DNA of 64,000 nt from Patescibacteria group bacterium (GCA_041674765.1 JBAYVE010000005.1:1645-65644), one strand, 5' to 3'. Shown: positions 20,222 to 55,359, counted from the first letter of the stretch. Program-made: numbers and translations. Notes: generated by a model not told the origin, from the sequence alone.

Positions 20222-20358
20222 GCTCAGACGAGCTGAGAGATCCTTCGCTTTGCTCAGGATGACAAAAAGTAAGCTCAGATGACAAAAATAAGCTTATGAT
20301 GACAAAATAACTTCAGGGTGACGGAATAATCTCAGAATGACAAAGTAATCTTGGGATG
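20222..20358 (+). repeat. Six degenerate tandem ~19-20-nt repeats (CTCAGRATGACAAARTAAG) immediately upstream of and running into the uvrD start codon; preceded by GATCCTTCG...CTCAGGATGACA element
   Basis: Read directly: tgctcaggatgacaaaaagtaag / ctcagatgacaaaaataag / cttatgatgacaaaataa / cttcagggtgacggaataat / ctcagaatgacaaagtaat / cttgggatgaagacaaat. Confidence 0.75.
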
Positions 20359-26214: not shown

Positions 26215-26367
26215 TATTTTAAACCCTCCATCTTTTTATAGGATACCAAAACTATTACAAAAAACAAAACAAGCGCAAGCGAAATCACTTTGTTGGATTA
26301 CCCTAATAGAATCTGCCCTCACTTTTCACCAATTCCCTACCACATTAAAAATAAAAAGGAGGGAAAG

Positions 26368-32600: not shown

Positions 32601-32776
32601 TACGTATTAAGTATTAAGTATTAAGTGGTAGGTGTTATGTGGAGGAAGGCGCTGGGGAATGTACTAAGGGGTAAATATTAAGTATTATGCAAGAGAACAA
32701 AAAAATCGAATCTGAATATTTATTTGTCATTCCAGACTGTGGCTCGATCCGCCAACTGGCGGACTGGAATCCAGCC

Positions 32777-37506: not shown

Positions 37507-38306
37507 CCCCCGGCTCCTCTCCAGGCAAGTTCAAAAAGCCCTCTCATGCTCTCGGCTATGTTCTTGTTGTCTATAATAACGGCGACTAGGACATCATCCT
37601 TGTTGTAATTGCAGAATGAGACCTTGTTGCCATATATTTGAATCTCAAGTTTACATGTAAACAAACTTTTCTTAACTACCCTTGTTTCTCTCAATTCGGT
37701 CTTGTCGTGAGCCAGATAGTCGGCCGTGTTTTTATCCTCGCCCGACGAGACAATAACTCGTGCCGGAATATTTGCTTTCACTCTTCTCTCTACATAGTGG
37801 TCTCGAAGCCATCGCCAAACTTTAGGATCAGACTCGGCTGCTTCCAAAAAGGCGTCGATTGGTTTGCCGACTTTGAGTGTGTCTTCGTATAATTCTTTGA
37901 TACCTTCATATCCTTCCATTACCCTGACCACCGGACGTTCGGTCGTCATCTTAAACATCTCTGACAAGCCGGGGAGTACAGAGTCGATGAGGGAATCTGC
38001 TTCTCGGAATTTTTGTTCTTGGTCAACGATATATTCCTTTAATCGATATGGATCTCTAGGGCGAAATTGAATTTTCTTATTCTTGATTGTTTGTTCTATC
38101 ACGCTCTTGTCGCGGAGGGAATAGAGGATATTGTAAAGATCGCCCCTTTTGTAAGGGGTTTTTGGTGTTAGGTCGCGTACTCCAAGCTGGCCACTAGAAA
38201 GTAATACCTCGTAAACTATAGCCTCTTTTTCCGATAGTCCTGCGCGGGATAAGACATCCTGATACTTGGAAATAGATTCCTTTTTTGGAGTTTTGTCATC
38301 TTGCAT
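37503..38306 (-). CDS. TrmB-like winged-helix transcriptional regulator (paralog of 29074..29787)
   Basis: N-terminal ...LSEKEAIVYEVLLSSGQLGVRDLTPKTPYKRGDLYNILYSLRDKSVI. Similar overall architecture to the 29074 protein. Confidence 0.5.
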   Translation of the reverse strand: MQDDKTPKKESISKYQDVLSRAGLSEKEAIVYEVLLSSGQLGVRDLTPKTPYKRGDLYNILYSLRDKSVIEQTIKNKKIQFRPRDPYRLKEYIVDQEQKFREADSLIDSVLPGLSEMFKMTTERPVVRVMEGYEGIKELYEDTLKVGKPIDAFLEAAESDPKVWRWLRDHYVERRVKANIPARVIVSSGEDKNTADYLAHDKTELRETRVVKKSLFTCKLEIQIYGNKVSFCNYNKDDVLVAVIIDNKNIAESMRGLFELAWRGAGG

Positions 38307-38472
38307 TGCCTAATTGTATTATTAATCACAATAATTTGTCAAGAATATTTGACACATTGTTAATACAAAAACAGTGTTAATTATTGGTTTATTAAGTACA
38401 GTATTTATAAATTTAAACAAAAATAGGTAGTCAATTTTGTAATTAATCTTGATTAAAACTGTTATAACCCCT

Positions 38473-38521
38473 TGACAAATAAAGCAAGCTGTTGTATAAT
38501 GGCCTGTCACGATGAGAAAGG
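38473..38521 (+). promoter_or_regulatory. Second copy of consensus promoter (TTGACA 38473-38478, 17 bp, TATAAT 38496-38501) + conserved leader motif GGCCTGTCACGATGAGAAAG, heading ~1 kb repeat-rich region with no ORF
   Basis: Direct sequence comparison with 371-419. Confidence 0.55.
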
Positions 38522-38555
38522 CGAACAGTGCCAGGAGCACTAGGCCGCGACTCAA

Positions 38556-39520
38556 AAGGACAGAACATTAAAAATTCAACAGTATAAAGGTCGAAGTATA
38601 GAGTATATAGGTAGAGATCAAAATCCCTAAATACTAAATACTAACCCCTTAATACTAATAAAAGAGGGCAAGAAAAAGACAAGCCCAAACCCAGTATTAA
38701 GTATTCTGTATATAGTTATAGGCATATCGGAAATCCGGCATTGCCACTTAGGTAATCGCATCTTTTAGCCGATATATTCCCCTAAATACTAAATACTAAT
38801 CACTTAATACTAATATCATCCCACTTCGCTCCTATCGGAGCTTCGCGGGATCTTCGAGTAATAGATTTATCCTTGACACAGGAGTTTAGAGATAAGTCTG
38901 AAACCAAGCGTTGAGCAATAAGCTAATAAGAATTAGTCATTTTGCTGAATGTGAAAGTGGACGAATATAAACTCAATTACTCGTAAATATTTTATTGTTC
39001 GAACGGAGCGAGAACTTCTCGTTTACGCTCGAAGAATAAACGGTGCTTATTCCGGCGCGCGCTCTTAGGAGGGGCAAACGCCAGAATTCCGGCCTTTGTG
39101 CTCATTTTGAGCATGGGTCAAACACAAATGGCGTGAATTAACGCCGTCCTTCGCATAAAGCTACGGACGGCATCGCCACAATTCCTCTGTCATCCTCGGG
39201 CTCGACCCGGGGATCCCAGACATCTTTTCGGATTTCGATATTCGAATTTCGAAATTTCCAGCATCACTTGCATAGCAAGTTGGTGCCGGATGGCTTGTCT
39301 CCTTCTTGCCCTCATATGCCGAGTGATCGGCATAGTATAAAGGGAAAAGTAGAAAGTATCATGGTTACCGTTCGAGCAGCCGTAAGGCATGCGAGAACTC
39401 CCAAAGTACTTAATACTAACCTCTTAATACTAAACATATATATCTGGCTCTCGCTTGAATCTGCCGAGACTACCATGTCATCCCCGGGCTTGACCCGGGG
39501 ATGACATGAGGCTTTTTAAT
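38556..39520. repeat. ~1 kb ORF-free region packed with TAATACT/AGTATTA microsatellites and palindromic elements (GTCATCCTCGGGCTCGACCCGGGGATCC at 39187-39215; CATGTCATCCCCGGGCTTGACCCGGGGATGACATG at 39477-39510; AAAGCTACGGA; CGAACGGAGCGAGAACTTCTCG)
   Basis: Visible repeats. This region forms the left border of the GC-rich island. Confidence 0.7.
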
Positions 39521-39846
39521 TTGCGCCTAAATTTATGAAAGGTAAGCAATAATCAGTCTTCGTCTTGGACTTTGAGCGAGAGTTGGAAAATTTCCCCTTA
39601 TATGTTGTCATTTCGACCCATTGAGAGCCCGCCGCTGGCGGTATGAATCAAGGCGAGAAATCCCATCGTATATTGGAAAAACAATTTAAAGAATAATAAA
39701 AGTAATTTTTGGTGCTGCATAGTTGGTTGGTCCTGCGAATGCGGGAGGAGCTGACTACGCTTCACAAAACATTATTCCTTTGTGGGACGTCTAGCTGGTA
39801 TTCCAGCTTGATTTGTGAGCCCCGTAGGAGAAGAAAGGAGTGAAGA

Positions 39847-40044
39847 ATGAAACACATAGGGTGTTTTATTATGATTGCAGTGTTTTTTACAGCTTTCATA
39901 TGGCGAGCGGTGGAAATGCTGATGGTGAAGAAAGTCTGGCCAGGGATGCCAGGCTTTTGGAGTATGATCATCGCTACCACGATCACAAGTGTGGTCATGG
40001 GTAGCGTCTGCTGGGCAGCAATGAAGCTGTCTAGCCGCAAATAA
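39847..40044 (+). CDS. Small membrane protein (2 TM)
   Basis: Hydrophobic ORF with RBS AAGGAG 8 nt upstream. Confidence 0.35.
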   Translation: MKHIGCFIMIAVFFTAFIWRAVEMLMVKKVWPGMPGFWSMIIATTITSVVMGSVCWAAMKLSSRK

Positions 40045-40314
40045 TATCTGCCAGAGCGCCTTTGCCTGCGAGAGCAGGACTTGTATAAGGATGTACATGA
40101 GGTGCTCTGGACCAATCTTTTGAGAAATGAAGGATTTATTCTTCGAACGTAGTGAGGAGTTCTCGACTTCTAGAACATCGCTCGAGCAATAAGTTATTTT
40201 TCCTCAAAATTTTTTTAGAGGAGTCTATGTGTCTCGCCTCAGGCGAGCCGAAAGCCTTCAAGGACATAGACTAGCCGGTCTTCGATAAATGAAGTGAAGA
40301 TCGGTGGAGGGAAT

Positions 40315-41361
40315 GCGATGACACGCATTTTCTTGAGTTCCAACCCCGAAAATCTGGCGGCTGAGTTGGCCGCTTTCCGCCTGACCGCAACGGTTGAGGC
40401 AGAATTCGGCGACACGGTCGTCGAAGGGTCAATTCTGACTCTCGCGCATCACGGCGCCCGGTCGGCGAACTCGGCTCCCTGCCTCGCCAGCAATGGTGTG
40501 GCCGGTGACCCGGTGCAGGTCGAGGCGATTGGCGTGAGCCACATCGACCTCGATTCCCTGGGCGGCGTAATGGCCGTCCTCGGGTCCAAGCCGGAATCGG
40601 TCGGCTTCTGGGCCTTGTCGGCCTTCGTCGATACGAATGGCCCCCACAAGTTGGCCCAGGCCGGCGCCGAGGCAGCGGATGTCGCCCGGCTCTACGCCTT
40701 TTGGGCGTATAGCCAGGCGCACCGGCTCATGCCGGATCGTTCCGGCGCCGTCACGGATGTGACCGAGCAGGTCACCGAGGCCATGGAGGCAATCGCGGCC
40801 ATCCTGGCCGACGACCCCGCCATGCTGGCCGCCGGCAATGATTTCCGCTCGGCGGAGGATTCGCTGAACAAGCGATCCTTTGTCGAGATGGTGGGAGGCG
40901 TTGGCGTCCGCGTTGCGGACGTTTTCGTCAGCCACCTCTATGGCTCGCCGGAAGGCGAGCTGGCGAAGGCCGTCGTGGCCTTTAACACCGTCACGGGTAC
41001 CGTGACGGTTTCCCTTGCTGATCCCATCCCCGGGGTCAGCGCCTGCACGATTGTGCAGGGAATCTGGGGGACGGAAGCCGGCGGGCATGCCGGCATCGCG
41101 GGTAGTCCCCGCGGTCGCCGCATGACTTTGGCTGATCTTGCCCGGGCGGCGGAAGCCGTCCGGGAGGTCATCGCCTCCACTTCGGTGGAGTGCGAGGACT
41201 GCGGGCAGGTGGTCTCCGACCTCCTGCCCGGCCAAATCCCCGACGGTTGGGGCACCGTCGGGTGCTACGAGGATTGCCCCAAGCACGAGGAGGCGTATTG
41301 CCCCTCGTGCTTGCCCGCCGCTCAGGCGGCGGGGCGTCATCGCTGTGGGCATGACCACTAG
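40315..41361 (+). CDS. Hypothetical protein (62% GC island) with C-terminal Cys/His-rich metal-binding tail; weak DHH-phosphoesterase-like motifs
   Basis: RBS GGAGGGA. Contains GVSHIDLDSLGG (similar to DHH motif I H..D.D..G) and GGHAGIAGS (similar to DHH-family GGGH motif), but no DHH triad. C-terminal CEDCGQ...CYEDCPKHEEAYCPSC...HRCGHDH. The antisense 333-aa ORF is judged a GC-shadow. Confidence 0.45.
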   Translation, partial: AMTRIFLSSNPENLAAELAAFRLTATVEAEFGDTVVEGSILTLAHHGARSANSAPCLASNGVAGDPVQVEAIGVSHIDLDSLGGVMAVLGSKPESVGFWALSAFVDTNGPHKLAQAGAEAADVARLYAFWAYSQAHRLMPDRSGAVTDVTEQVTEAMEAIAAILADDPAMLAAGNDFRSAEDSLNKRSFVEMVGGVGVRVADVFVSHLYGSPEGELAKAVVAFNTVTGTVTVSLADPIPGVSACTIVQGIWGTEAGGHAGIAGSPRGRRMTLADLARAAEAVREVIASTSVECEDCGQVVSDLLPGQIPDGWGTVGCYEDCPKHEEAYCPSCLPAAQAAGRHRCGHDH

Positions 41362-41560
41362 CGATGACGGAAGGCTTTGCTTGTTGAGCCAATCCAACAA
41401 GCTGCTTCGCTTGAGGCAGGAAGAAATCAAGCAACAACCCGCTCCGACCTTTTAGTCGGAGCACCAGAGCCTGCCCTAGGACAAGAAGTTCTAGGGCACT
41501 CCTTATTCAATTTAATTTCGATTGAATTGAATAAAAGAGAATGGCTTCAAAGAAGTTTTG

Positions 41561-41647
41561 CAAAAATTACTGTCTTATAAATTGATCTATCAGATTAGTT
41601 ATAAGGCAATAATGCCTTGATTGTGAGTCGAAAGGAGAAAGACCATG
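41561..41647 (+). promoter_or_regulatory. AT-rich regulatory element inside GC-rich island: AAATTACTGTCTTATAAATTGATCTA...TTATAAGGCAATAATGCCTT...GAAAGGAGAAA-ATG; second copy at 42719-42805
   Basis: The two ~85-nt copies are about 85% identical. Each contains the palindrome AAGGCAATAATGCCTT and an RBS, and ends at the ATG of a small ORF. Confidence 0.7.
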
Positions 41648-41830
41648 GCTTACAATTGCAAAAAGACGGACCATGATGGTCCGAAGCGTGGCGCTGGCGC
41701 CTTTCGGGGTCGCCGCGCCGACGCAAAAGTGGCGGCTTCGCGCCGCCGCCGCCAGGATGGCCGCAATGAAGCGGCCAAAGGACTGGCAGAACAGGGGAAC
41801 GCTCAGGAGGGCGTTCCCAAACCATTTTGA
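41645..41830 (+). CDS. Small basic protein (61 aa, Arg/Ala-rich)
   Basis: ORF immediately following the repeated regulatory element + RBS AAAGGAG. Confidence 0.35.
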   Translation: MAYNCKKTDHDGPKRGAGAFRGRRADAKVAASRRRRQDGRNEAAKGLAEQGNAQEGVPKPF

Positions 41831-41916
41831 TTAAGATTTAGAGTTTTTTGATTTAAAATTCCAATCTTCATCAAATCCCATTATGGCCATTGAGTCTGAG
41901 GGAATGGAGGTGAAGT

Positions 41917-42204
41917 ATGTTGAAACATTTTTTACGGTTTTTAAACCGTATAGCTAAAGCCGAGGTCGTAAAGGCCGAAGCGGAAGCTATGGCGGCCAAA
42001 GTGGCCGCCGACGAAGCCGCAAGGAAGGCGGCACGAGAAAATCACGAAGCGCAGGAAGCGCTTTTGGTCGTAACTGCCCTGAAGGATTCGGGGCGGTTGA
42101 TCTCATCCATCACAGAATTCACTGGTGGGTGTGATCGGGGTGCGTGGCACCCCACGAAGATTTGGAGTCTTGATGGGCAACAGATTGCCCACTGGACTCT
42201 TTGA
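41917..42204 (+). CDS. Hypothetical protein; 5' leader (41860-41916) shares a conserved motif with leader of 46971 gene
   Basis: Leader ...CTTCATCAAA.C.CATTGAG.CTGAG.G.A.GGAGGTGAAGTATG is shared with 46913-46970. Confidence 0.4.
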   Translation: MLKHFLRFLNRIAKAEVVKAEAEAMAAKVAADEAARKAARENHEAQEALLVVTALKDSGRLISSITEFTGGCDRGAWHPTKIWSLDGQQIAHWTL

Positions 42205-42331
42205 AAAGGATTGGCCGGACGACGCGGCCATAAGCTACTCAAATGATTGAGTAGCACAGTCGAGCCATGCAGCCTCGCGGTATCGGGAATAAGCTCATAG
42301 AGCCCCAACCGCAAAAAGGAGGTGTAGTGCA

Positions 42332-42529
42332 GTGGCAAAAGACGCTCAGGCGGCCATGAGGCCGTCTGTCATCCCCATTCTCATCGAGAAGGGGATGAGC
42401 CGCGAGGAGTTGATGCTTCTCGTAGATCGTCTCGTTGGCGAGGTGGAAACCTACGCTAATGGGCCGTTCTCGGCAGAAGCACTCCGTGGCGAAATCACGG
42501 CAGTGCAGAATACCGTTGTAAAACGGTAG
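42332..42529 (+). CDS. Hypothetical small protein
   Basis: ORF with RBS AAGGAGG (42317-42323). Confidence 0.35.
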   Translation: MAKDAQAAMRPSVIPILIEKGMSREELMLLVDRLVGEVETYANGPFSAEALRGEITAVQNTVVKR

Positions 42530-42802
42530 ACTGCTGGGTACAAAACTTTGCTCCGACGGGTTAGATCGGGGCGGCGCCAGTCAAGGTGTCTGGGCGGGGA
42601 CTTTCCTATAAGTTGTCTTCATGGCAGCGATGAAATGGAAAGCGAAACCACAAAAATCCGCAACTATGCGACAAATAGTGAAATATTCCCGAGGAGCCCC
42701 AGCTGGGGCTCCTCAAATCCAAAATTACTGTCTTATAAATTGATCTAATTTGATCAGTAATAAGGCAATAATGCCTTCTGGCGCATATGAAAGGAGAAAA
42801 TT

Positions 42803-42937
42803 ATGATCGTATGCGTATATTGTAAAACGCCCCCGGATGGGGCAGCCGTGTGCCCGTGTTGCGGCCACACGATGGACTCCTCCACCATGGAATGGGTGGA
42901 GGAGCAGGATAACTCTCCCAAGGATGGGGAGAAATAA
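42803..42937 (+). CDS. 44-aa zinc-ribbon protein (CVYC...CPCC), not in ORF track (<60 aa)
   Basis: Translation MIVCVYCKTPPDGAAVCPCCGHTMDSSTMEWVEEQDNSPKDGEK, read manually. Preceded by the second copy of the regulatory element + RBS AAAGGAG. Confidence 0.4.
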   Translation: MIVCVYCKTPPDGAAVCPCCGHTMDSSTMEWVEEQDNSPKDGEK

Positions 42938-43197
42938 ACAAACCGATTTATCCGTGAGAGGCATCGGGCATGACGTCCTTTGCCTCTCAAATTTTTCTCT
43001 TTATCAAACTGCTCTCGAACTTCGAGAGCAGTTTCAGTATAGAGTTTTCTTGGGCCACCCTGCCCATTTGCCCTGACGCGCCGTCCGTAGATTTACGCAG
43101 AGGATGGACTTGTTTGGCTTGAAACACTAGCCGGACTGGAGGGAAGTCGATTAAATTCGGCCAGGCAGGGGTGGGTGATAATCCCCGGTCTGAGGAG

Positions 43198-45150
43198 ATG
43201 AAGATGAATAAAAGTCTTCCGATCGCCGACTATCGCGAGCAGATTCTGCAAGCGATAGAGGTAAACTCGGCGGTGGTGATCACTGCCGAAACGGGAGCTG
43301 GGAAATCGACCCAGGTACCCCAATTCCTTATGGAAGCGGGATATCGAGTGGTCGTGACCCAGCCACGGCGTCTTGCCGCAAGGACAGTGGCCGAGCGTGT
43401 AGCCGAAGAAGTCGGTTGCCAGCTTGGTGAAGAAGTCGGCTTTCGAACTGGCTTCGAGCGTAAGGACTCGGCTCAAACCAAAGTGCTTTTTTGCACGGAT
43501 GGTTTGCAGCTCGTCCGCGAGTTGACCGGCAACGGTGCCACCGACGTTCTTGTTATTGATGAAGTCCATGAGTGGAACATCAACATCGAGACGTTGGTCG
43601 CCTGGACGCGCAAGCGTTTGGGTGAAGGTGTCGACTTCAAGGTTGTGCTGATGAGTGCGACCTTGGATGCCGAGAGGCTTGCCGCGTTCTTTGGCGAGAC
43701 AGTGCCGGTGATCTCGGTGCCAGGTCGACTTTTTCCGGTCGAAACAAAAAGTGGCAGGACGAGCGAACTGGTGCCGACCGTGCGTGGACTGGTAGCTGAG
43801 GGCAGAAATGTCCTTATTTTCCAGCCTGGCAAGCGGGAGATCGAGGCGACGGTTCGGGAATTAACCGGGCTGAACGTTGAAGTCCTCCCCCTGCATGGGG
43901 ATATGGAATCGGCCGATCAGCGCCGAGCGTTTCGTCACTATGACCGTCCCAAAGTGGTCGTGGCGACGAATGTGGCCCAGACCTCCATTACCATCGATGA
44001 TATCGATGCGGTGGTGGATAGTGGGGTCGAGCGGCGGGTTGAGTTGGTTGACGGGATTGAAGGTCTTTACCTCAAGCCCATTAGCCAAGCAGATTGCAAG
44101 CAGCGCGCCGGTCGAGCCGGACGTTGCAAAGAGGGCATTTATGTTCTCTGCTCTGATTCGTCACTGGAAAGCCGTCCGGCATATCCCAAGGCGGAGATCG
44201 AGCGAAGTCGTCTCGACCAGTTGGTACTGCGTTTGGCGGTGACTGGCTTTGATGCTACAGCATTAGAGTTTTTTCATCAGCCGGAGCGGGCTGTGCTGGA
44301 AGATGCGAAGCGTGCCTTGCATGCATTGGGGGCGATGTCGGAGGACGGCCAGGTCACGAAGATCGGGCGTCAGATGGCAAAACTGCCGATCAGCGTGCAG
44401 TATGCGCGCATGGTGATCGAAGCGGCTCGTCTCGGCGAAGAAGAGGACGTAACGACGATTGTCGCACTCCTCGAAGCCGGCGGATTGCGTGCCAGCAAGG
44501 ATGATCGCTGGCGGAAATTGACGGCGGAGATACAGAGTGATCTGCTTGCCGAGCTGGACCTCTTTGAGGCCTGTCAAGGCTTCTCTGGCGAGGATTTCCG
44601 TGAAAACGGCGTCTTTGCCAAGGCCTATTTTCGGGCAAAGGAGATTCGGGCGAAGCTCCGTCAGGCGCTTGTCAGTGCGGGGATCAGTTTTGACCGGTCG
44701 GAGAAACACGACCGGCAAGCGATCATGAAGGCCTGCGTTGCTGGGATGGTGGACCACCTTTATCACACAGACGGGTGGAGTGATTACCATAACGGTAGTG
44801 GGGGCACGCGCCAAAAAGCGCGCGAAAGTGTTGTCTCCGGTTCGCCGGAGTGGGTCGTGGGCTTGCCCAAAGATATTGGGTTTAAGGATCGCCGCGGTTA
44901 TGACCGCGTCCTGAACCTGGTGGCGATGGTGACGGCCGTCGACCCAATGTGGCTTGCCGAGGTGGCGCCGCAGCTAGTGCGGCTGGATACGGGACTTTCC
45001 CCTCACTTCGACTCCGAGAAGGACCTGGTTGTTTCGACGACACAGACATTCTTCAAAGAGTCGAAGATCGGGGAGGAAATTATCCCTGATCCGGCGCACG
45101 CAGAGGCGGCGTCGGTGTTTGCAAACTGGCTCGCCAGCCAGTGCCTTTAA
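43198..45150 (+). CDS. DEAH-box (HrpA/HrpB/DHX-like) ATP-dependent RNA/DNA helicase
   Basis: Motif I ETGAGKSTQVPQFL, Ia VVVTQPRRLAARTVAERVA, DEVH (VLVIDEVHE), SAT (LMSATL), motif V VVVATNVAQTSITIDDIDAVVDSG, motif VI QRAGRAGRCKEG. Start set at MKMNKS after RBS GAGGAG. Confidence 0.8.
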   Translation: MKMNKSLPIADYREQILQAIEVNSAVVITAETGAGKSTQVPQFLMEAGYRVVVTQPRRLAARTVAERVAEEVGCQLGEEVGFRTGFERKDSAQTKVLFCTDGLQLVRELTGNGATDVLVIDEVHEWNINIETLVAWTRKRLGEGVDFKVVLMSATLDAERLAAFFGETVPVISVPGRLFPVETKSGRTSELVPTVRGLVAEGRNVLIFQPGKREIEATVRELTGLNVEVLPLHGDMESADQRRAFRHYDRPKVVVATNVAQTSITIDDIDAVVDSGVERRVELVDGIEGLYLKPISQADCKQRAGRAGRCKEGIYVLCSDSSLESRPAYPKAEIERSRLDQLVLRLAVTGFDATALEFFHQPERAVLEDAKRALHALGAMSEDGQVTKIGRQMAKLPISVQYARMVIEAARLGEEEDVTTIVALLEAGGLRASKDDRWRKLTAEIQSDLLAELDLFEACQGFSGEDFRENGVFAKAYFRAKEIRAKLRQALVSAGISFDRSEKHDRQAIMKACVAGMVDHLYHTDGWSDYHNGSGGTRQKARESVVSGSPEWVVGLPKDIGFKDRRGYDRVLNLVAMVTAVDPMWLAEVAPQLVRLDTGLSPHFDSEKDLVVSTTQTFFKESKIGEEIIPDPAHAEAASVFANWLASQCL

Positions 45151-45161
45151 AGGAGGGCAAA

Positions 45162-46676
45162 ATGAGCGAAAAACTCCTAGAGGTGCTGGCGGCAAACAAA
45201 GCGCGACAAGATCGCGCCCGCCAGCTTAATATTCGGGCCGGGGCAGAAATGTTTCCCGTGCTCGACCAGGCGCAAATGAGAGCCTGGATGACCGATAAGG
45301 CAGCGGGAGCGCGCCGGATGGCAGAGATTGCCGATCCTGAAGCTCTACGCTTGCCTGCCCTCGACGAGGTTTTGGTTCAAACGGTGATTCGCGAGAACCC
45401 CGACGAGATCGAGCTTCTCGGGGCGATGCGAACAGTGGATTACAAGGATAGTTACGGCCGTTCCAGGCCGAATCCGCGGGTCCGCATTGACTTCAGGGGA
45501 GAGAATGCCAACGACTGGCAAAGGCTCCCCGACGAGATCCGGTTGCCGGGTGGCCGTGAGGTTTGCCTGTATTCCGCCATTGACGGATATGGGTATTACA
45601 TCGAGGCTGTGCCCTCTGAGTTTAAGGCAAAAGTGCGTGATTGCCTAAACCAGGCTCAATGGGACAACTGGCCTCAGGCCGATCGACCGGAGATCCCAGT
45701 TCTCGACCCGGCCGACGACGAGGCGGCTATCCCTGAAATCACCACTGTCCAGTACGGGCAGTGCGTGGTGACGGGCGAGCCGCTCATCGCCTTTGGTACT
45801 TTGGCTCCGAAGAGCCGATACTACACGACGGACCCATATTTCGTGGTCCAGTGGTACCGGTCGATTGAGGAGGCCGAAGTGTCTCGGGTAAAGGCCGTCG
45901 AAACGCTCGAGAAAGAGCTAGCGGCTGTCCGGGAGTGCCGGGAACTGGAGATCGCCAAGCAGGAAGCTGAAGCGGTCAAATTAATATTCGAGTCACTCTA
46001 CCGCGAAGTAGATAATACCCGCGAGTGGCTTGAGTTGCCGGATGAATTGAGGAATCGTCTTCGTAGCCGGCATTGTAGCTATGTACCATCCTCATTGCTG
46101 GAAATCCGCCAATGGCAAGCAGAGACAGAGGCGTTAATCGCTGAGGTAGGGCCAGCTTTGGTGGAAATCAAGCGTCAGCAGGCGGAAGCCGAGCGTCAGG
46201 CACGCGAAGAGCAGGAAGCTGCTGTTCGTGCCGAAGAAGCTCGGCGGGTTCGTGAGGAGGAAGCCCATCGTGGGCAGATGGAAGAGATTCTGACTGCCAT
46301 GCGGGGTGTCCTCGGGTATGTGCCTGTAATCCGTTGCGACTTTGAAGAAGTCGCCGGCAAGAATGGTACATACTTGGAAAATTGGGGCCGCCTCACAGGT
46401 ATTAACTGTGATGGCGAGTCCGACTCGTACTGTGACGGCCGTAATGCCGTGGTGGTGCAGTCTGTTGAAACCACCGGCGGTGTGCTGGAGTTCCTGGCCT
46501 ACTGGAAGTATGGCAATTGGAACTTGGCCGCTCGCTGGCGAGAACTTTCCGAAGCCGCGGCACACGCCGTTGAGATTGGGGAGGTTCGGGCGGAGGATCT
46601 GGAAGATCCGAAGCCAGTAGAAGATCTGGGGGCGTCGCTTGCGGCGCTCCAGGCGAAGTTCAAAGGATTGAACTAA
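45162..46676 (+). CDS. Hypothetical protein with central coiled-coil (ERQAREEQEAAVRAEEARRVREEEAHR)
   Basis: RBS AGGAGGG. The start is 12 nt after the helicase stop. No recognised domain. Confidence 0.45.
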   Translation: MSEKLLEVLAANKARQDRARQLNIRAGAEMFPVLDQAQMRAWMTDKAAGARRMAEIADPEALRLPALDEVLVQTVIRENPDEIELLGAMRTVDYKDSYGRSRPNPRVRIDFRGENANDWQRLPDEIRLPGGREVCLYSAIDGYGYYIEAVPSEFKAKVRDCLNQAQWDNWPQADRPEIPVLDPADDEAAIPEITTVQYGQCVVTGEPLIAFGTLAPKSRYYTTDPYFVVQWYRSIEEAEVSRVKAVETLEKELAAVRECRELEIAKQEAEAVKLIFESLYREVDNTREWLELPDELRNRLRSRHCSYVPSSLLEIRQWQAETEALIAEVGPALVEIKRQQAEAERQAREEQEAAVRAEEARRVREEEAHRGQMEEILTAMRGVLGYVPVIRCDFEEVAGKNGTYLENWGRLTGINCDGESDSYCDGRNAVVVQSVETTGGVLEFLAYWKYGNWNLAARWRELSEAAAHAVEIGEVRAEDLEDPKPVEDLGASLAALQAKFKGLN

Positions 46677-46970
46677 TCGCCAATTTCCGTCCATCACCCT
46701 TCCTTCGGGAGCGGTGATGGACACTTCAACCTGCCCGTGATGGCTATTCTACATGTTTGTCTATTAGATGATCATGCAGGATACTCCTGAGCCATTGCCG
46801 GCAGATTAGAAGAATTTGGAAACAGTGCGTCTTAAACCTTTCTATCTTTTGATGCAGATTTAGAGTGATTAACTTTATAACTTTCAGCTTTATGAACTTT
46901 ATAAACTAATTTTCCAACCTTCATCAAAGCGCATTGAGCCCAATTGAGGCTGAGCGGGAGGAGGTGAAGT

Positions 46971-47762
46971 ATGGCGAAAGATGGGGATGTGAGATATTCC
47001 GTTTCCCCAAGTTGTTATACCGGCTGTTATTGTATTCGCCGGTGTTTGTACAACGCCAAGGTCAGGAGACCAAGGTGGGAGAGAAGTTGTGACGAAGATG
47101 TCTACGGCATTGAAAGTGCCATAGAGGTTTTTATAAGTAAACTTCTTTCAGAAACTCCTGGAACTTTCCAAGTTGAAGTTTCCAAGGAGATCCTGGAACA
47201 TGTTCCGGGCTTGATCTCAGCAGAGGGGGAGATTGACTTGGATGTCTGCCGCTCCTTTCTCCAAAAATTGGATGAAGAAAAAAAGCGAGCTGAGCAGGAG
47301 GAAGCAAGGCTTGCTGAAATCGAGCGCCGAGAAATTGCGGAGATGATTGCTGCGAGCAACGATCAGTTCCGCAACCGGTTCTCGGAGTTGGTGGGAAAAA
47401 CCGTCTCCGGGCTGGAACTTTCCGGTGACCAAACAGGCTTATGCCTTCGATTCACGGATGGATCGGAAGTCTGTTGGGAGGCTGCTCCGGGCTGCTGGTC
47501 CTGCGCTGAGGCTTGGTGGAACGACGGCATCGGCGTGGAAAATTTGTTCGGTACTCCCGTCACGGAGGTCTTACAGTTGGAGCTGCCGAATACTTCACAG
47601 CAGCGAGTCAGTGCTGTGGCTTATGGGGTTCAATTCCGAACCAGCAAAGGGGTGACGACCTTTGCTTTTCGGGGCAATCACGAGCATTACGGAGCTTCCA
47701 TTGAGATCATTGAGAAGAGCGAACTCGATGGATGGTCTCCAGTACAGGATGATTGGGGCTAG
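46971..47762 (+). CDS. Hypothetical Cys-rich N-terminus protein
   Basis: Shares its 5' leader with 41917. Followed by a rho-independent terminator at 47881-47915 (AATCCCC...GGGGATTTTTTGTT). Confidence 0.4.
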   Translation: MAKDGDVRYSVSPSCYTGCYCIRRCLYNAKVRRPRWERSCDEDVYGIESAIEVFISKLLSETPGTFQVEVSKEILEHVPGLISAEGEIDLDVCRSFLQKLDEEKKRAEQEEARLAEIERREIAEMIAASNDQFRNRFSELVGKTVSGLELSGDQTGLCLRFTDGSEVCWEAAPGCWSCAEAWWNDGIGVENLFGTPVTEVLQLELPNTSQQRVSAVAYGVQFRTSKGVTTFAFRGNHEHYGASIEIIEKSELDGWSPVQDDWG

Positions 47763-47880
47763 GCTCTCCAACCCACCGTTTCGGCGGTGGGTTGGAAATT
47801 TAAACCTGCTTTCAATGGCGGTTCTGCATAGTTTACTGCGCGGGACACTCCTGCGCCATTGTTGGCAGATTTAAAGCAAA

Positions 47881-47915
47881 AAATCCCCAACCGGAACGGA
47901 AGGGGATTTTTTGTT
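47881..47915 (+). terminator. Intrinsic terminator closing the GC-rich island
   Basis: AAAAAATCCCCAACCGGAACGGAAGGGGATTTTTTGTT: hairpin + T-run. Confidence 0.7.
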
Positions 47916-48130
47916 GCACGAGGATAGAACTTACTTATGTAATCTTTCACGCTAAAGCGCGGGCTACAAATTTTCTTCTGAGTGAAGGATTTGTCCTGCT
48001 TACAAGCTAAAGCTTGGGCTACAACCGTTTTTTAGGCCTTGAATCTGATTTTTTGTTGTCCACTTTTTTAAATTTTGGAACCGGTTTATAATTAACCCGA
48101 TGATAGATTGCCACGGCTCTTGGCCTCGCA

Positions 48131-48589
48131 ATGACTAATAAAAACAATGAATTCCAAAATGTTATGGCTTTGACAAAGGATGATTTACAAGCGATTGGCA
48201 ACATAATCGACAATAAGATCGATGATTTTGCTGTGACTGTGGCGGCTGGTTTTGGCGATATGAAAGAATATATGGACAAACGGTTCGATCAAGTCGACAA
48301 GCGTTTTGAACAAGTAGACCAACGATTTAAGCAAGTCGATAAACGCTTTGAACAAGTTGACCAGCGCTTTGATCAAGTCGACAAACGCTTCGACTCTATG
48401 GATTTTAAGATTGGTTTGATGCAAACAGATATCAAGGAGATCAGGGCGGAAATTGTCAAATTAAATTTGAGATTAGATATAATAGAGAAGAGAACCTTTG
48501 AAGATACTGATCTGACTCTTAGGGAAATCGAGAAGGTTAAAAAAAGAGTTTTATTGCTAGAAAAGATAGTGAAAATAAAGACCGCCTGA
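48131..48589 (+). CDS. Heptad-repeat protein (tandem DKRFEQV/DQRFKQV x5 = 21-nt DNA repeats) with C-terminal coiled-coil
   Basis: KRFDQVDKRFEQVDQRFKQVDKRFEQVDQRFDQVDKRFDSMD, read directly. The underlying DNA has period 21. Confidence 0.55.
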   Translation: MTNKNNEFQNVMALTKDDLQAIGNIIDNKIDDFAVTVAAGFGDMKEYMDKRFDQVDKRFEQVDQRFKQVDKRFEQVDQRFDQVDKRFDSMDFKIGLMQTDIKEIRAEIVKLNLRLDIIEKRTFEDTDLTLREIEKVKKRVLLLEKIVKIKTA

Positions 48590-48886
48590 ATTTTTATTCC
48601 CGACAAGGAGTATTTCAGTGCGGTTTTTTGTTATAGAAAATAAGGGGGGATTATGATAGGATTGACGGAAGTATTAAGGGCTTAGTATTAAGTATTAAGT
48701 ATAGAGTATAGAGTATTAAGTTAGCAGGTGGATCATACCCCACCTAGCCTCCCCTTTCTAAGGGGAGGAATAACTGGACGACATCAAATATTAGGTATTA
48801 GGTTGGGCAGAGCAATGTTTCGGGCAGGAGATTTCTCCGCCTACGCCTTCGGCGGAGAGTCAAAATGACAACAGGATAATAACCAA

Positions 48887-49834: not shown

Positions 49835-50197
49835 ATGAAAATTTTGAACTTTACTGATCTATTGGTTTGGAAAGAGGGACATTCCCTAGTCCTGGCAATC
49901 TACGAAGCTACTAAGAGTTTTCCTCGTGAAGAAATGTTTGGGCTAACAAGTCAAATCCGTCGAGCTGTCATTTCTATCACCTCTAATATTGCTGAGGGTT
50001 TTGGGCGAAAATCAAAGAAAGAAAAAGTTAATTTTTACAATATATCTTCAGGATCTCTCACTGAAGTTCAAAATCAATTAATGATTGCAAAAGATCTGGG
50101 ATATATCTCATGTTCTCAATTTGACCTTATGCTTAATAAGAGTGTTGGCGTTTACAAGATGTTAAATGGACTGATAAGATCCATTTCGGTCGACTAG
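49835..50197 (+). CDS. Four-helix-bundle protein (TIGR02436 / so-called 23S rRNA-intervening-sequence protein, Avd-like)
   Basis: ...LVWKEGHSLVLAIYEATKSFPREEMFGLTSQIRRAVISITSNIAEGFGR......F..IS.GSL.EV.NQL..A matches this family. Flanked by TAGTAGCTA-word repeats (49736-49815) and an inverted copy (50200-50232). Confidence 0.7.
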   Translation: MKILNFTDLLVWKEGHSLVLAIYEATKSFPREEMFGLTSQIRRAVISITSNIAEGFGRKSKKEKVNFYNISSGSLTEVQNQLMIAKDLGYISCSQFDLMLNKSVGVYKMLNGLIRSISVD

Positions 50198-54542: not shown

Positions 54543-54632
54543 ATTCCTCCTAGAGCAATTATTTGCTTTTCTATTATAACACCTTCTAGTCCCAAAAAAG
54601 CAATAAGGCTCCTTTTTGTATTGACAAAACTA

Positions 54633-55358
54633 ATGCAAAAACTAGTCTATGGTCGAGCCTTCCTGGCGTTGTCGGTTATTCTTTGCTTTGTCTTCATCTG
54701 TCTTATCGGCAGTGGATGCAACAAGAATACCCGCAGCAATCAGGCGGCGACGACCGAGGCCAGGGACATTACTCTCCTGGTCTACGTCGACAGAAGCGAA
54801 TCGATCATGAGCTACCCCGGTGGCTTGGATGCGATCCGCAATGATTACAAGAGCATAGCTCAGGGATTTTTGAAGCCGATCTTGCAACGGCGTGACGGAG
54901 TCATCGTTGAAGCAAGAGCCTTCGTATGCGAAGATGTGATACTCTTCGACAAGAAGGTTGACAAGTGGGAGCAGATCCGGAAATCGATAAATGATGAGAT
55001 CGATAAGGATCCGTATCCTGCCGGAGAGGTGTCGAAGACGCTTTTCTCCAACTTGTTGGTAAGACTTCAGAAGGAATGCAAGCAGCGTTCTAGCCAGGAC
55101 GTCTATGTGTTAGTTCTTACAGACGGCCATCCGGATGAGCCCTTCAAGGCTATCAGTGATGCAGCCAAGGAACTCGCTAAAGACGACACTGGTAATCTGA
55201 AAGCGCTGGTTGTAGCGCCAGTCGCGGCGGATATGAAACGCCGGTGGCGGGAAAACTTGATTGAGGCTCTATCACCCATTAGTTGTTCCACGGTAGCGAA
55301 CGCGGAAGATTTCCGAACTGCAGTGGACAACGCGACAAAGACCCTGGAAGGAGAGTAG
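54633..55358 (+). CDS. Lipoprotein with von Willebrand factor A (vWA) domain
   Basis: Signal + lipobox (FICLIGSGC). MIDAS motifs LLVYVDRSESI (D.S.S) and VLVLTDGHPDE (TDG). GC about 52%, above its neighbours. The ORF track starts at TTG 54621, which coincides with a TTGACA box; ATG 54633 is preferred. Confidence 0.55.
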   Translation: MQKLVYGRAFLALSVILCFVFICLIGSGCNKNTRSNQAATTEARDITLLVYVDRSESIMSYPGGLDAIRNDYKSIAQGFLKPILQRRDGVIVEARAFVCEDVILFDKKVDKWEQIRKSINDEIDKDPYPAGEVSKTLFSNLLVRLQKECKQRSSQDVYVLVLTDGHPDEPFKAISDAAKELAKDDTGNLKALVVAPVAADMKRRWRENLIEALSPISCSTVANAEDFRTAVDNATKTLEGE

Positions 55359-55359
55359 C

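What the first reader, a model, noticed from the sequence alone, without database searches (positions are those of the whole stretch)
39520..47915. 8.4-kb 62%-GC foreign island of hypothetical genes (DHH-like Cys-rich protein, small basic and zinc-ribbon proteins, DEAH helicase, coiled-coil protein) with no recombinase, all on one strand
There is an abrupt compositional jump from ~40% to ~62% GC. All seven or eight ORFs are on + and have good SD sequences, and a clean terminator closes the block at 47881-47915. The left border is embedded in host-type repeats (GTCATCC..GGATGAC at 39187/39477, CCGCCGCTGGCGG at 39625), which argues for a genuine insertion rather than a chimeric contig. The contents (DEAH/HrpA-like helicase 43198..45150, a 505-aa coiled-coil partner 45162..46676, and a 349-aa protein with degenerate DHH-like motifs and a Cys/His tail) match no named defence or mobile system I can recognise. 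This is a candidate novel helicase-centred module, possibly phage- or plasmid-derived or an anti-phage system.
Basis: partly seen in the sequence, partly recalled or inferred. Interest (0 to 1): 0.65.

Follow-up and report, generated by a model that had tools for sequence, protein, structure and literature searches.

The report
Split HrpA-like helicase locus with RNA leader
The GC-rich block is not a one-off foreign insertion but this ultrasmall bacterium's copy of a gene neighbourhood found across Patescibacteria, built around a two-part HrpA-like RNA helicase that carries a previously uncatalogued structured RNA leader in front of it.

Summary
The compositional shift is real but overstated. 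The stated interval is 54.5% GC, its coding sequence 58%, and the rest of the window 42%; only the first gene reaches 66%. The contig is from a Patescibacteria (CPR) genome. The same layout recurs in at least 14 CPR genomes from several candidate phyla: a large GNAT- or methyltransferase-domain protein, a converging TrmB regulator gene, a gap of about 1 kb, variable plus-strand genes, then a DExH helicase and its partner. In those loci GC also steps up after TrmB.

- **Core genes.** The core is an HrpA-like DExH (DEAH/RHA-family) helicase (43204-45150) and a 504-aa partner (45162-46676). The two are fused into one protein in many genomes. The partner's predicted fold weakly resembles the ribosome-docking C-terminal region of E. 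coli HrpA.
- **RNA leader.** A roughly 155-nt structured RNA (43049-43206) lies directly upstream of the helicase. It has more than 70 covarying examples, all upstream of the helicase or the partner, and no Rfam match.
- **349-aa protein** (347 residues as modelled). It folds as a DHH/DHHA1 phosphodiesterase.
- **Mobile or defence origin.** There is no recombinase, no att repeats and no defence-system match. Helicase plus partner, and the DHH family, also occur in jumbo-phage contigs.
- **Unexplained.** The helicase has higher GC3 than distant genes in 45 of 48 genomes.

The parts
34780..37506 (+). Large 908-aa protein with a class I SAM-methyltransferase domain. It belongs to the 'big protein' family that precedes TrmB in related loci, where most members end in a GNAT domain. 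It lies outside the finding and has host-like GC (41%).
   Evidence: Pfam methyltransferase domains. It matches an HMM of the c2 family at 1.9e-21. c2 members carry a C-terminal GNAT domain.
37503..38306 (-). TrmB-family HTH regulator. It converges on the large protein and is transcribed divergently from the GC-rich genes. It is the conserved left neighbour of the block.
   Evidence: PF01978 at 1.2e-8. Orthologues sit 1.4-8.4 kb upstream of the helicase on the opposite strand in 14 loci.
38307..39846 (.). ORF-poor spacer of 1.5 kb. It holds clusters of the host heptad motif (AGTATWR)n, divergent sigma-70-like promoters (38313-38342 on the minus strand, 38472-38500 on the plus strand) and two copies of a GC-rich hairpin (39189-39214, 39474-39508).
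   Evidence: hairpin -32 kcal/mol, z = -6.8. There is no Rfam hit and no sequence similarity to the spacers of other loci.
39847..40044 (+). A 65-aa hydrophobic small protein with host-like GC (46%) and no homologues in related loci.
40318..41361 (+). A 347-aa DHH/DHHA1-fold phosphodiesterase-like protein. It has the variant motif AHH, an SHxDLD motif and GGH, plus a window-specific C-terminal Cys/His (zinc-ribbon-like) tail. It is the GC peak of the block (66%, GC3 0.79).
   Evidence: AlphaFold2 pLDDT 92.6. The top Foldseek PDB hits are TM1595 pApA phosphodiesterase, S. aureus NrnA, GdpP and NrN, with probability 0.95-0.99. The family has at least 373 homologues, usually about 285 aa, with no Pfam domain. 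Invariant residues are listed.
41563..41618 (+). A repeated promoter/5'-UTR module. Its second copy is at 42721-42777. The copies precede the 61-aa and 44-aa ORFs.
   Evidence: The first 27 nt are 100% identical and the next 26 nt are 92% identical.
41645..41830 (+). A 61-aa Arg/Lys-rich ORF with no homologues found.
41917..42204 (+). A 95-aa ORF with an Ala/Glu-rich helix and no homologues found. Its upstream region (41825-41928) is repeated at 46847-46982.
42332..42529 (+). A 65-aa ORF with no homologues found.
42803..42937 (+). A 44-aa zinc-ribbon ORF (CxxC...CxCC) with a good ribosome-binding site.
   Evidence: Read from the sequence. It is called as a gene in the Logan contig.
43049..43206 (+). 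Conserved structured RNA leader in the helicase 5' UTR. A closing helix P1 has its 3' strand abutting and overlapping the ribosome-binding site. Helix P2 (CCCUGC/GCAGGG) is invariant. The leader also has the GGAAGUC-hairpin-GGCCRRGCAGGGUGGG core and two variable hairpins.
   Evidence: Covariance model R1 scores 96 bits here. There are 19 further strong hits in held loci and 52 in metagenome loci, all upstream of the helicase or the partner. Covariation exceeds the shuffled and slid controls. The single-sequence fold reproduces the consensus structure. There is no Rfam 15 match.
43204..45150 (+). A 648-aa HrpA-like DExH (DEAH/RHA) RNA helicase core. It contains RecA1, RecA2, a winged helix and HA2/ratchet, and aligns through the equivalent of HrpA residues 76-721.
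   Evidence: Pfam DEAD, Helicase_C and HA2_N. The best solved relatives are the E. coli HrpA core (3e-79) and Prp22/DHX8. It has more than 7900 homologues, the nearest 82% identical. Invariant motifs are GxGKT, DEVH and QRxGRAGR.
45162..46676 (+). A 504-aa partner, which is the detached C-terminal region of the helicase. It comprises a helical bundle (3-78), alpha/beta domains (82-232), long helices (235-384) and a small beta domain (430-460).
   Evidence: It is adjacent or fused to the helicase in all CPR loci examined. The family has 416 clusters at 50% identity, either standalone or at the C terminus of 1000-1550-aa proteins. AlphaFold2 pLDDT 83.5. The top Foldseek PDB hit is full-length HrpA on the disome, 9gft_B, with E = 6.5e-3 and probability 0.92. 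No sequence-level match was found.
46971..47762 (+). A 263-aa protein with a Cys-rich N terminus, a coiled coil and a DUF7448-like C-terminal domain.
   Evidence: PF24240 at 1e-5, just under the curated cut-off. phrog_2650 at 4.9e-7. No homologue was found in related loci.
47875..47915 (+). Terminator-like hairpin that closes the GC-elevated block. An A-run and a T-run flank a GC stem, so it could act in both directions.
   Evidence: Inverted repeat I18. Fold energy -22.7 kcal/mol, z = -4.7.
48131..48589 (+). A 152-aa coiled-coil protein encoded partly by five 21-nt tandem repeats, with host-like GC. Similar genes sit next to the helicase in L010 and within about 3 kb of the helicase-partner pair in L049. 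It is followed by heptad-motif repeats at 48670-48724, in inverted orientation relative to those at 38627-39433.

Best explanation
The interval is this organism's version of a recurrent Patescibacteria gene neighbourhood.

**Layout.** On the left, at host composition, are a large methyltransferase/GNAT-type protein and a converging TrmB-family regulator. After a spacer of 1-1.5 kb comes a run of separately promoted plus-strand genes. The accessory members of this run differ from genome to genome. Here they are a DHH/DHHA1 phosphodiesterase with a zinc-ribbon tail, four tiny ORFs and a DUF7448-like protein.

**Core.** The conserved core is a two-gene RNA helicase. It consists of an HrpA-like DExH core and, 11 nt downstream, its detached C-terminal region.

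**How it most likely works.**
- *Shown:* the two proteins are halves of one enzyme, because they are fused in many relatives.
- *Inferred from E. coli HrpA:* the partner docks the helicase onto its RNP substrate, plausibly the ribosome, and the core then pulls on RNA 3'->5' using ATP.
- *Shown:* expression is set in cis by a conserved, covarying leader RNA of about 155 nt whose closing helix ends at the ribosome-binding site.
- *Inferred:* the leader works as a feedback element that is bound or unwound by the helicase-partner pair itself. The reason is that every copy found so far sits in front of the helicase or partner genes and in front of nothing else.
- *Inferred from fold only:* the DHH enzyme probably clears short oligoribonucleotides or related nucleotide phosphodiesters.

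**Composition.** The GC excess is a property of this locus in cellular genomes generally, not the mark of one recent insertion. It is best explained by repeated horizontal exchange of these genes, some of which are shared with jumbo phages. That explanation is incomplete.
For: **Recurrence and synteny**
- TrmB on the minus strand plus the large protein lie upstream of the helicase in L007/L013, L011, L015, L018, L030, L035, L067, L075, L077, L080, L082, L083, L085 and JGI 3300072015. The outer flanks differ among these loci.
- GC rises from a mean of 0.42 (TrmB side) to 0.50 in all 14 such loci.
- L093 has the same left end and a GC-rich block with the DHH-family gene but no helicase.

**Split enzyme**
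- The partner is adjacent in every CPR locus, and in L009 and many proteins of 1000-1550 aa it is fused to the helicase.
- The helicase core is closest to E. coli HrpA and Prp22.
- The partner's model has HrpA on collided ribosomes as its top PDB match. Its domain order (helical bundle, alpha/beta, alpha/beta, long helices) parallels HB2, alpha+beta-1, alpha+beta-2 and Hook as described for HrpA (PMC11419001).

**Leader**
- There are 20 strong hits among 94 held sources and 52 among 75 metagenome loci. The downstream gene is the helicase (38 matches), the partner (10 matches) or a divergent DEVH helicase.
- 89.8% and 90.7% of cells are paired. Covariation scores are 0.287 and 0.199, against 0.146 and 0.095 in shuffles (0 of 500 shuffles reach the observed value). 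Slid controls are at most 0.084.
- Second copies stand before the partner gene where the two genes are further apart (L022, L029, L197, L219, L233).

**DHH fold:**

**Exchange**
- CPR lineages are intermixed and two actinomycetes are nested within them in the helicase tree.
- Helicase plus partner are on jumbo-phage contigs L096, L097 and L103, which carry a divergent PolB, an HNH endonuclease and a prohead protease.
- The DHH family is in 47 IMG/VR loci.
- Helicase GC3 exceeds that of distant genes in 45 of 48 loci, by 0.17 on average, p = 2.6e-12.
Against: - **Partner versus HrpA.** The similarity is weak (E = 6.5e-3, TM 0.20). Sequence methods do not support it, and no second structural method was available.
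- **Function.** No experiment or expression data bear on function. A ribosome-related role rests entirely on analogy.
- **Leader mechanism.** Autoregulation is inferred only from the one-family 'regulon'; a small-molecule riboswitch is not excluded. P1 overlaps the ribosome-binding site by only 1-3 nt, so the switching mechanism is unclear.
- **Composition.** Horizontal exchange does not explain why the offset is almost always upward, or why helicase GC tracks host GC (r = 0.84). Phage copies are compositionally native, so phages are not obviously the GC-rich source.
- **Tree.** It is neighbour-joining without support values, and many MAG labels are unreliable.
- **Small ORFs.** Four of the small ORFs have no homologues and may not all be genes.
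- **Synteny coverage.** The TrmB link was seen in about 16 of the 59 loci that have enough upstream sequence, not in all of them.
Confidence: 0.55

Rival explanations
1. Recent foreign insertion. The 40.2-47.9 kb block is a mobile-element or prophage remnant that landed in this genome.
For: - GC3 is 0.54-0.79 inside the block against 0.37-0.47 in flanking genes.
- Most accessory ORFs have no homologues in about 90 related loci.
- Three of the four large genes have relatives or family matches in phage collections.
- Inverted clusters of a repeat flank a segment of about 10 kb.
- The Logan contig breaks at both borders.
Against: - There is no integrase, transposase or relaxase. No direct att-type repeats were found and no tRNA gene is near.
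- Intergenic DNA inside the block has host composition (45.6%) and includes the host heptad motif just before the helicase leader.
- The same neighbourhood, with the same left-hand genes, exists in many other CPR genomes.
- The flanking repeat is a genome-wide intergenic motif.
- There are no close relatives in the INPHARED phage or PLSDB plasmid collections.
Confidence: 0.2
2. Anti-phage defence island. The helicase, its partner and the nucleotide-degrading accessory enzymes form an uncharacterised immune system under TrmB control.
For: - The accessory content is variable. In other loci it includes a P-loop protein with a Csx3-like domain, a DEDD-type exonuclease, a MYG1/DHH protein and a GNAT.
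- Weak PADLOC hits match the helicase domains of Cas3, HamB and SngC.
- A RhuM/Fic gene lies 13 kb away.
Against: - The PADLOC hits cover only generic SF2 motifs, and no other protein of the block hits anything.
- The core belongs to the RNA-type DEAH/RHA clade together with HrpA and Prp22.
- Jumbo phages themselves encode the helicase-partner pair.
- A dedicated structured leader is more typical of housekeeping RNA-binding proteins.
- The core is strongly conserved, at 45-82% identity.
Confidence: 0.1
3. The leader is a small-molecule riboswitch rather than a protein-binding feedback element. Under this reading the locus responds to a metabolite, for example a nucleotide-derived signal that the DHH enzyme degrades.
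For: - The RNA has a multi-stem junction with invariant unpaired nucleotides (GGAAGUC, GGCCRRG), and its closing helix sits next to the ribosome-binding site.
- The structure is supported by covariation.
Against: - All instances of about 70 precede one gene family, the helicase or partner. This is unusual for riboswitches and typical of autoregulatory leaders.
- The DHH gene itself has no copy of the motif.
Confidence: 0.15
4. Assembly chimera. A GC-rich fragment from another organism was mis-joined into a CPR contig.
For: The composition changes abruptly, and there are repeats and hairpins near both borders.
Against: - Two assemblies agree base for base across both junctions.
- A third record (JGI, 76 kb) holds the same helicase.
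- The synteny is seen on contigs of 0.5-1 Mb in other genomes.
Confidence: 0.02

Closest known systems
E. coli HrpA (DEAH/RHA helicase that splits collided ribosomes; PDB 9gft/9ggr, PMC11419001)
   Same: - The helicase core aligns end to end at about 32% identity, covering HrpA residues 76-721.
- A large C-terminal extension is required in HrpA and is always present here, either fused or as the next gene.
- The predicted domain order of the partner parallels the HrpA C-terminal region, and HrpA is its top PDB fold hit.
   Different: - The C-terminal region has no sequence similarity to DUF3418.
- In this genome the enzyme is split into two genes.
- The subfamily is distinct: 45-82% identity within it, about 30% to canonical HrpA.
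- It is found in CPR bacteria, some Clostridia MAGs, two actinomycetes and jumbo phages.
- The CPR copies carry a dedicated leader RNA.
- Ribosome binding has not been tested.
Eukaryotic DEAH-box helicases Prp22/DHX8, Prp16, Prp43/DHX15
   Same: They share the RecA1-RecA2-WH-ratchet(-OB) core. E-values are 1e-59 to 1e-77 over about 590 residues.
   Different: There are no G-patch partners or spliceosomal context. The accessory region is a bacterial or phage-specific protein.
Stand-alone DHH/DHHA1 phosphodiesterases (NrnA, TM1595 pApA phosphodiesterase, GdpP catalytic domain, NrN)
   Same: - The two-domain fold matches with probability 0.95-0.99.
- A His-His motif, an Asp-rich motif and a GGH motif are invariant in the family.
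   Different: - The Pfam DHH and DHHA1 models do not detect it.
- The signature is AHH rather than DHH, and the motif order looks permuted.
- This copy has an added Cys/His tail.
- The substrate is unknown.
Autoregulatory mRNA leaders of RNA-binding proteins (ribosomal-protein leaders) and riboswitches
   Same: It is a conserved, covarying structure in the 5' UTR. It ends at the ribosome-binding site and is tied to a specific downstream gene.
   Different: It matches none of the 4227 Rfam 15 families. The effector, whether protein or ligand, is unknown. It is so far restricted to CPR-type loci.
Genomic islands and integron-like cassette arrays
   Same: The cargo is variable and sits at a conserved chromosomal position next to a conserved gene pair. 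Short intergenic modules are repeated between cargo genes in several genomes. Composition is atypical.
   Different: There is no integrase, no attC- or att-like sites, and each gene appears to bring its own promoter-like module. The conserved neighbour is a TrmB regulator, not a recombinase.

Membership tests
DEAH/RHA (HrpA-like) SF2 helicases | Two RecA-like domains with Walker A (GxGKT), a DExH box and motif VI (QRxGRAGR) | tested here: met
   Pfam DEAD at 4e-9 and Helicase_C at 2.2e-15. Invariant G31-K34-T36, D119-E-V-H122 and Q300-R..G303-R-A-G-R307 in 26 sequences.
DEAH/RHA (HrpA-like) SF2 helicases | Winged-helix and HA2/ratchet module after RecA2 | tested here: met
   PF04408 at 7e-8. 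The phmmer alignment to HrpA and DHX8 runs through query residue 594-614.
DEAH/RHA (HrpA-like) SF2 helicases | C-terminal OB-fold domain | tested here: inconclusive
   The alignment to HrpA extends to residue 721 of the chain, which would include the OB region. No OB Pfam model hit was obtained and the helicase was not modelled.
Canonical HrpA (orthologue of E. coli HrpA) | DUF3418-type C-terminal region (HB2, alpha+beta-1, alpha+beta-2, Hook) | tested here: not met
   No PF11898 hit in the partner or in 18 family members. A profile search against PDB, which includes full-length HrpA, found nothing. hhalign probability was 1%. The only support is a weak fold hit to 9gft_B. The protein therefore works like HrpA at best and is not filed as a member.
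Canonical HrpA (orthologue of E. coli HrpA) | Binding to collided ribosomes and ATP-dependent subunit splitting | not testable with these tools
   Needs biochemistry or cryo-EM.
DHH/DHHA1 phosphoesterases | Two-domain DHH plus DHHA1 fold | tested here: met
   Model pLDDT 92.6. The top eight PDB hits are all DHH/DHHA1 phosphodiesterases, with E = 1.5e-4 to 6.6e-4. Low TM scores (0.24-0.31) reflect the orientation between the two domains.
DHH/DHHA1 phosphoesterases | Catalytic motifs DxD, D, DHH and D, plus GGGH in DHHA1 | tested here: inconclusive
   Invariant H44-H45 (preceded by Ala, not Asp), D77, D79, D105, H110 and G255-G256-H257. The correspondence to the canonical motifs was not checked on a superposition.
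DHH/DHHA1 phosphoesterases | Detection by the Pfam DHH (PF01368) or DHHA1 (PF02272) models | tested here: not met
   No Pfam family at E <= 0.1. None was precomputed for 120 homologues.
Known anti-phage defence systems (PADLOC-DB 2.0) | Match of the component proteins to system-specific models | tested here: not met
   Only generic helicase-domain hits were found, the best being Cas3e at 6.6e-8 over 150 residues. No significant hit was found for the other seven proteins; the partner had only weak hits, TmtA at 0.0037 and Cas12a at 0.011.
Integrative mobile element or prophage | Recombinase (integrase or transposase), flanking direct repeats, structural or transfer genes | tested here: not met
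   No such Pfam or PHROG hits. The repeat search found no att-like direct repeats. There is no adjacent tRNA gene.
Rfam RNA families | Score at or near a family's gathering threshold | tested here: not met
   Nothing at gathering thresholds in the block. At E <= 10 only miRNA/snoRNA-type noise was found.
Cis-regulatory structured mRNA leader | Conserved secondary structure supported by covariation, at a fixed position in the 5' UTR of one gene family | tested here: met
   Thirteen of 22 pairs show double changes in the first set. The gap from the end of the core pattern to the called start codon is mostly 30-54 nt.
TrmB-family transcription regulators | N-terminal TrmB-type winged HTH | tested here: met
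   PF01978 at 1.2e-8, residues 19-86. The effector domain and operator were not tested.

The most novel reading that the evidence does not exclude
Two linked possibilities survive the evidence.

1. The 43049-43206 RNA founds a new class of regulatory RNA that is specific to a CPR-type ribosome-associated helicase. It could be an rRNA-mimicking autoregulatory site or a new riboswitch.
2. The stretch downstream of the big-protein/TrmB pair is a phylum-wide, recombinase-independent hotspot. Under this reading Patescibacteria and their jumbo phages swap promoter-equipped gene cassettes there, and this maintains a persistent GC3 excess of about +0.17 over the host genome.
Probability: 0.2. Interest if true: 0.8.

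Novelty: new variant of a known kind. Interest (0 to 1): 0.6.

Why it matters
- **A candidate translation-surveillance enzyme.** Patescibacteria have tiny genomes and lack many standard RNA-quality-control and ribosome-rescue factors. A strongly conserved HrpA-like helicase with its own kind of docking region is a candidate for how they, and phages that encode it, manage stalled translation or RNA turnover. It is shared with jumbo phages and has a dedicated regulatory RNA.
- **A testable new RNA.** The leader is a well-supported RNA motif absent from Rfam. This makes it a ready target for structure probing and for finding its effector.
- **An unexplained compositional pattern.** The upward GC3 offset of one syntenic locus holds across dozens of genomes of very different base composition. 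It could report on how gene exchange works in these organisms.

Tried and rejected
- **E. coli genomes, INPHARED phages, PLSDB plasmids.** No DNA match was found, and only canonical HrpA/HrpB at about 30% identity. The block is therefore not a known phage or plasmid.
- **PADLOC.** No system was found.
- **Partner versus HrpA C-terminal region by sequence.** The tests were phmmer and a profile against PDB, Pfam on 18 members, and hhalign against E. coli HrpA residues 760-1300. All were negative.
- **High expression as the cause of GC3.** Rejected. The ribosomal-protein genes S20 in L009 (GC3 0.20) and S16 in L093 are not GC-elevated.
- **An intrinsic property of the helicase gene as the cause of GC3.** Rejected. 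In jumbo phages helicase GC3 equals the phage average, for example 0.13 against 0.13.
- **Amino-acid constraint alone.** Rejected, because GC3 shifts more than GC1 or GC2.
- **The flanking TAATACTAA inverted repeats as element ends.** Rejected. They are part of a genome-wide intergenic heptad motif.
- **Homology between the window's DHH protein and the proteins at the same position in L003 and L009.** Not detected by hhalign. 'Recurrent DHH enzymes' therefore rests on a Pfam MYG1 hit in L009 and on motifs seen by eye.
- **Conservation of the TrmB-side spacer across loci.** None was found.
- **Known RNAs in the spacer and intergenic regions.** None was found.
- **Literature.** Searches on Patescibacteria with TrmB, helicase, HrpA, DUF7448 or RNA motifs found nothing relevant.
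- **The large protein's non-catalytic part.** No solved relative was found.

Full report
**Source and observation.**

The window comes from a Patescibacteria (CPR) metagenome-assembled contig. The helicase protein is recorded by NCBI as 'helicase-related protein [Patescibacteria group bacterium]' on a 77-kb contig.

- Outside the block the window is 42.4% GC.
- Only the first gene reaches 66%. The helicase and partner are 57%, the last gene is 51%, and the intergenic DNA inside the block is 45.6%.
- The excess is strongest at third codon positions: 0.54-0.79 inside against 0.37-0.47 in neighbouring genes.
- The composition claim is therefore real but overstated, and the step lies at about 40240.
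- An independent Logan assembly is 100% identical over 39638-48770 and spans both transitions. Together with the synteny described below, this makes a chimera very unlikely.

**Gene content.**

All genes lie on the + strand.

| Coordinates | Product |
|---|---|
| 39847-40044 | 65-aa membrane peptide |
| 40318-41361 | 347-aa protein |
| 41645-41830 | 61-aa basic ORF |
| 41917-42204 | 95-aa ORF |
| 42332-42529 | 65-aa ORF |
| 42803-42937 | 44-aa zinc ribbon |
| 43204-45150 | helicase |
| 45162-46676 | partner |
| 46971-47762 | 263-aa protein with a near-threshold DUF7448 / phrog_2650 match |

These calls rest. A stable hairpin at 47875-47915 closes the block. Two pairs of intergenic modules are repeated: 41563-41618 with 42721-42777, and 41825-41928 with 46847-46982. 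Each pair sits in front of two unrelated small genes, so the block holds several transcription units with shared promoter/5'-UTR sequences.

**Not a one-off insertion.**

Contexts of helicase relatives show a recurring arrangement. It runs: a large + strand protein of 480-1400 aa with a C-terminal GNAT domain, a converging minus-strand TrmB gene, about 1 kb of spacer, variable + strand genes, then the helicase and partner.

- In the window the large protein carries a methyltransferase domain instead of GNAT, but it matches the family HMM at 1.9e-21.
- TrmB lies 1.4-8.4 kb upstream of the helicase in 14 loci. Their labels include Komeili-, Uhr-, Parcu-, Sacchari- and Peregrinibacteria. The outer flanking genes differ among them.
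- In all 14 loci GC rises after the spacer, from a mean of 0.42 to 0.50.
- L093 has the same left end and a GC-rich block that contains the 347-aa family, but no helicase.
- The accessory genes of the window have no homologues in about 90 related loci, apart from the 347-aa family.

**The core is a split HrpA-like enzyme.**

- The helicase has DEAD, Helicase_C and HA2 domains and invariant GxGKT, DEVH and QRxGRAGR motifs. Its best solved relatives are the E. coli HrpA core (3e-79) and Prp22/DHX8.
- It forms a distinct subfamily. Identity is 45-82% within it, and about 30% to canonical HrpA on plasmid and phage records.
- The 504-aa partner is always the next gene or is fused to the helicase. 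A whole-library profile search finds 416 clusters, either standalone (320-660 aa) or at the C terminus of 1000-1550-aa proteins.
- The partner's model (pLDDT 83.5) has a helical bundle, alpha/beta domains and long helices. The single best PDB match is full-length HrpA bound to collided ribosomes, with E = 6.5e-3 and probability 0.92.
- The published domain order of the HrpA C-terminal region is HB2, two alpha+beta domains and a helical Hook that contacts both ribosomes. That region is required for ribosome splitting (PMC11419001).
- Sequence methods see no relationship between the partner and that region. I therefore claim analogy, not membership.

**A structured RNA leader.**

- The 100 nt before the helicase start are 91% identical to the relative L003, higher than L003's 81% amino-acid identity in the helicase.
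- Eight loci share conserved blocks upstream of the helicase, and RNAalifold predicts nested helices.
- A covariance model finds 20 strong hits (E from 1e-9 to 1e-25) in 94 held sources. All are on the coding strand and end at the helicase start, except two that end at the start of a separately spaced partner gene. There are no hits in the Clostridia, actinomycete or phage loci.
- An independent set was drawn from metagenomes using a 22-base core pattern. It gave 75 loci and 52 full-length model hits. The downstream gene was the helicase (38 matches), the partner (10 matches) or a divergent DEVH helicase.
- Pairing is kept in 89.8% and 90.7% of cells. Covariation scores are 0.287 and 0.199, against 0.146 and 0.095 in shuffles (0 of 500 reach the observed value). 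Slid controls are at most 0.084. These alignments are fitted to the model, which favours the structure somewhat.
- In the window the motif spans 43049-43206. The minimum-free-energy fold of the single sequence reproduces the consensus structure. The 3' strand of the closing helix (43187-43194) overlaps the ribosome-binding site (43192-43197).
- No Rfam 15 family matches.
- Every copy precedes one gene family. A feedback element recognised by the helicase-partner pair therefore seems more likely than a metabolite riboswitch, but this is inference.

**The 347-aa protein.**

- The family has at least 373 members, usually about 285 aa, with no Pfam domain.
- The model (pLDDT 92.6) matches DHH/DHHA1 phosphodiesterases: TM1595, NrnA, GdpP and NrN.
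- Invariant His-His, Asp and GGH residues fit a metal-dependent phosphodiesterase.
- The Cys/His tail is peculiar to this copy and a few relatives.

**Mobility, phages and composition.**

- No recombinase, att repeats, tRNA target or defence-system match was found.
- The repeat that flanks the region in inverted orientation belongs to a heptad motif, AGTATWRAGTAT. It occurs 19 times in the window against 0.8 expected, always in intergenic DNA, and one copy lies immediately before the leader.
- Helicase plus partner occur on IMG/VR contigs of 95-250 kb. One of them encodes a divergent PolB, an HNH endonuclease and a T4-type prohead protease, so it is a real jumbo phage.
- The DHH family occurs in 47 viral loci of 28-67% GC.
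- In the helicase tree CPR lineages are intermixed and two actinomycetes nest beside Saccharibacteria.
- Across 48 genomes the helicase GC3 exceeds that of distant genes in 45, by 0.17 on average, p = 2.6e-12.
- The excess is not explained by expression, because ribosomal-protein genes are not elevated. It is not intrinsic to the gene, because most phage copies are compositionally native.
- Horizontal exchange is the best available explanation. It does not account for the offset being consistently upward, or for its correlation with host GC (r = 0.84). I regard this as unexplained.

**Verdict.**

It is a resident, phylum-wide neighbourhood with variable cargo around a split HrpA-like helicase, not a private foreign island or a recognisable defence system. 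The most novel element is the leader RNA. The most puzzling one is the locus-specific GC3 excess.

Noticed in passing
window 29973, 31573, 32603-32685, 33222, 38595-39417, 43036, 48684-48716, 61706-61724: A heptad-type motif, AGTATWRAGTAT (tandem AGTATTA/AGTATAG units), occurs 19 times against 0.8 expected. Every copy is in intergenic DNA. Copies cluster near both TrmB paralogues and at both ends of the block. It could be a promoter element or a TrmB operator.
   Followed up: partly
window 38313-38500 and 38500-39515: Near-consensus divergent promoters are present: 11 of 12 matches on the minus strand for TrmB, and 12 of 12 on the + strand at 38472-38500. The + strand promoter is followed by about 1 kb without a convincing ORF. 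That stretch ends at a 15-bp GC hairpin plus T-run at 39474-39508, so it may be an unannotated non-coding transcript.
   Followed up: partly
window 20356-23658: A UvrD/PcrA-type helicase of 1100 aa is interrupted by an intein (Intein_splicing domain, residues 310-632).
   Followed up: no
window 18623-19645 (minus strand) and 54621-56901: These are the other locally GC-elevated genes, at about 52-54%. One is a SAICAR synthetase. The others are two adjacent proteins (245 and 513 aa) with no Pfam match.
   Followed up: no
window 26290-27366: A protein combining Bro-N, RhuM and Fic/DOC domains lies next to a B12-binding radical SAM gene on the opposite strand.
   Followed up: no
window 29074-29787: A second TrmB paralogue lies 8 kb upstream of the first and matches the same HMM at 3.5e-70. 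L011 likewise has a TrmB gene at each end of its GC-rich block.
   Followed up: partly
window 48266-48393: Five tandem 21-nt repeats encode a DKRFEQV-type heptad repeat in the 152-aa coiled-coil protein. Similar genes lie directly upstream of the helicase in L010 and within about 3 kb of the helicase-partner pair in L049.
   Followed up: partly
window 49835-50197: A four-helix-bundle protein of the '23S rRNA intervening sequence protein' type is present, with a weak bAvd-like match. No reverse transcriptase is nearby.
   Followed up: no
L046, L051 (Actinoallomurus, Spirillospora chromosomes): Helicases of this subfamily (51-53% identity) occur in two actinomycete genomes and nest beside Saccharibacteria copies in the tree. 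Actinomycetes are hosts of Saccharibacteria, to my knowledge, so host-symbiont transfer is conceivable.
   Followed up: no
L007 6364-7935 and 9709-14274; L093 8859-9912; L011 15281-16256: Other genomes' versions of the block also hold highly similar (76-100%) intergenic modules of 33-290 nt, repeated in front of unrelated genes. This gives the blocks a cassette-like organisation.
   Followed up: partly
L075 8052-9290 (family also in L080, L083, L016): An accessory gene in several versions of the block encodes an N-terminal P-loop NTPase fused to a Csx3-like (ring-nuclease-type) domain, PF09620 at 4.3e-6.
   Followed up: no
L070, L072 (Absconditabacterales / Peribacteria): With translation table 11 the helicase is broken into several ORFs. 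This is as expected if these lineages read UGA as a sense codon, and the gene is probably intact there.
   Followed up: no
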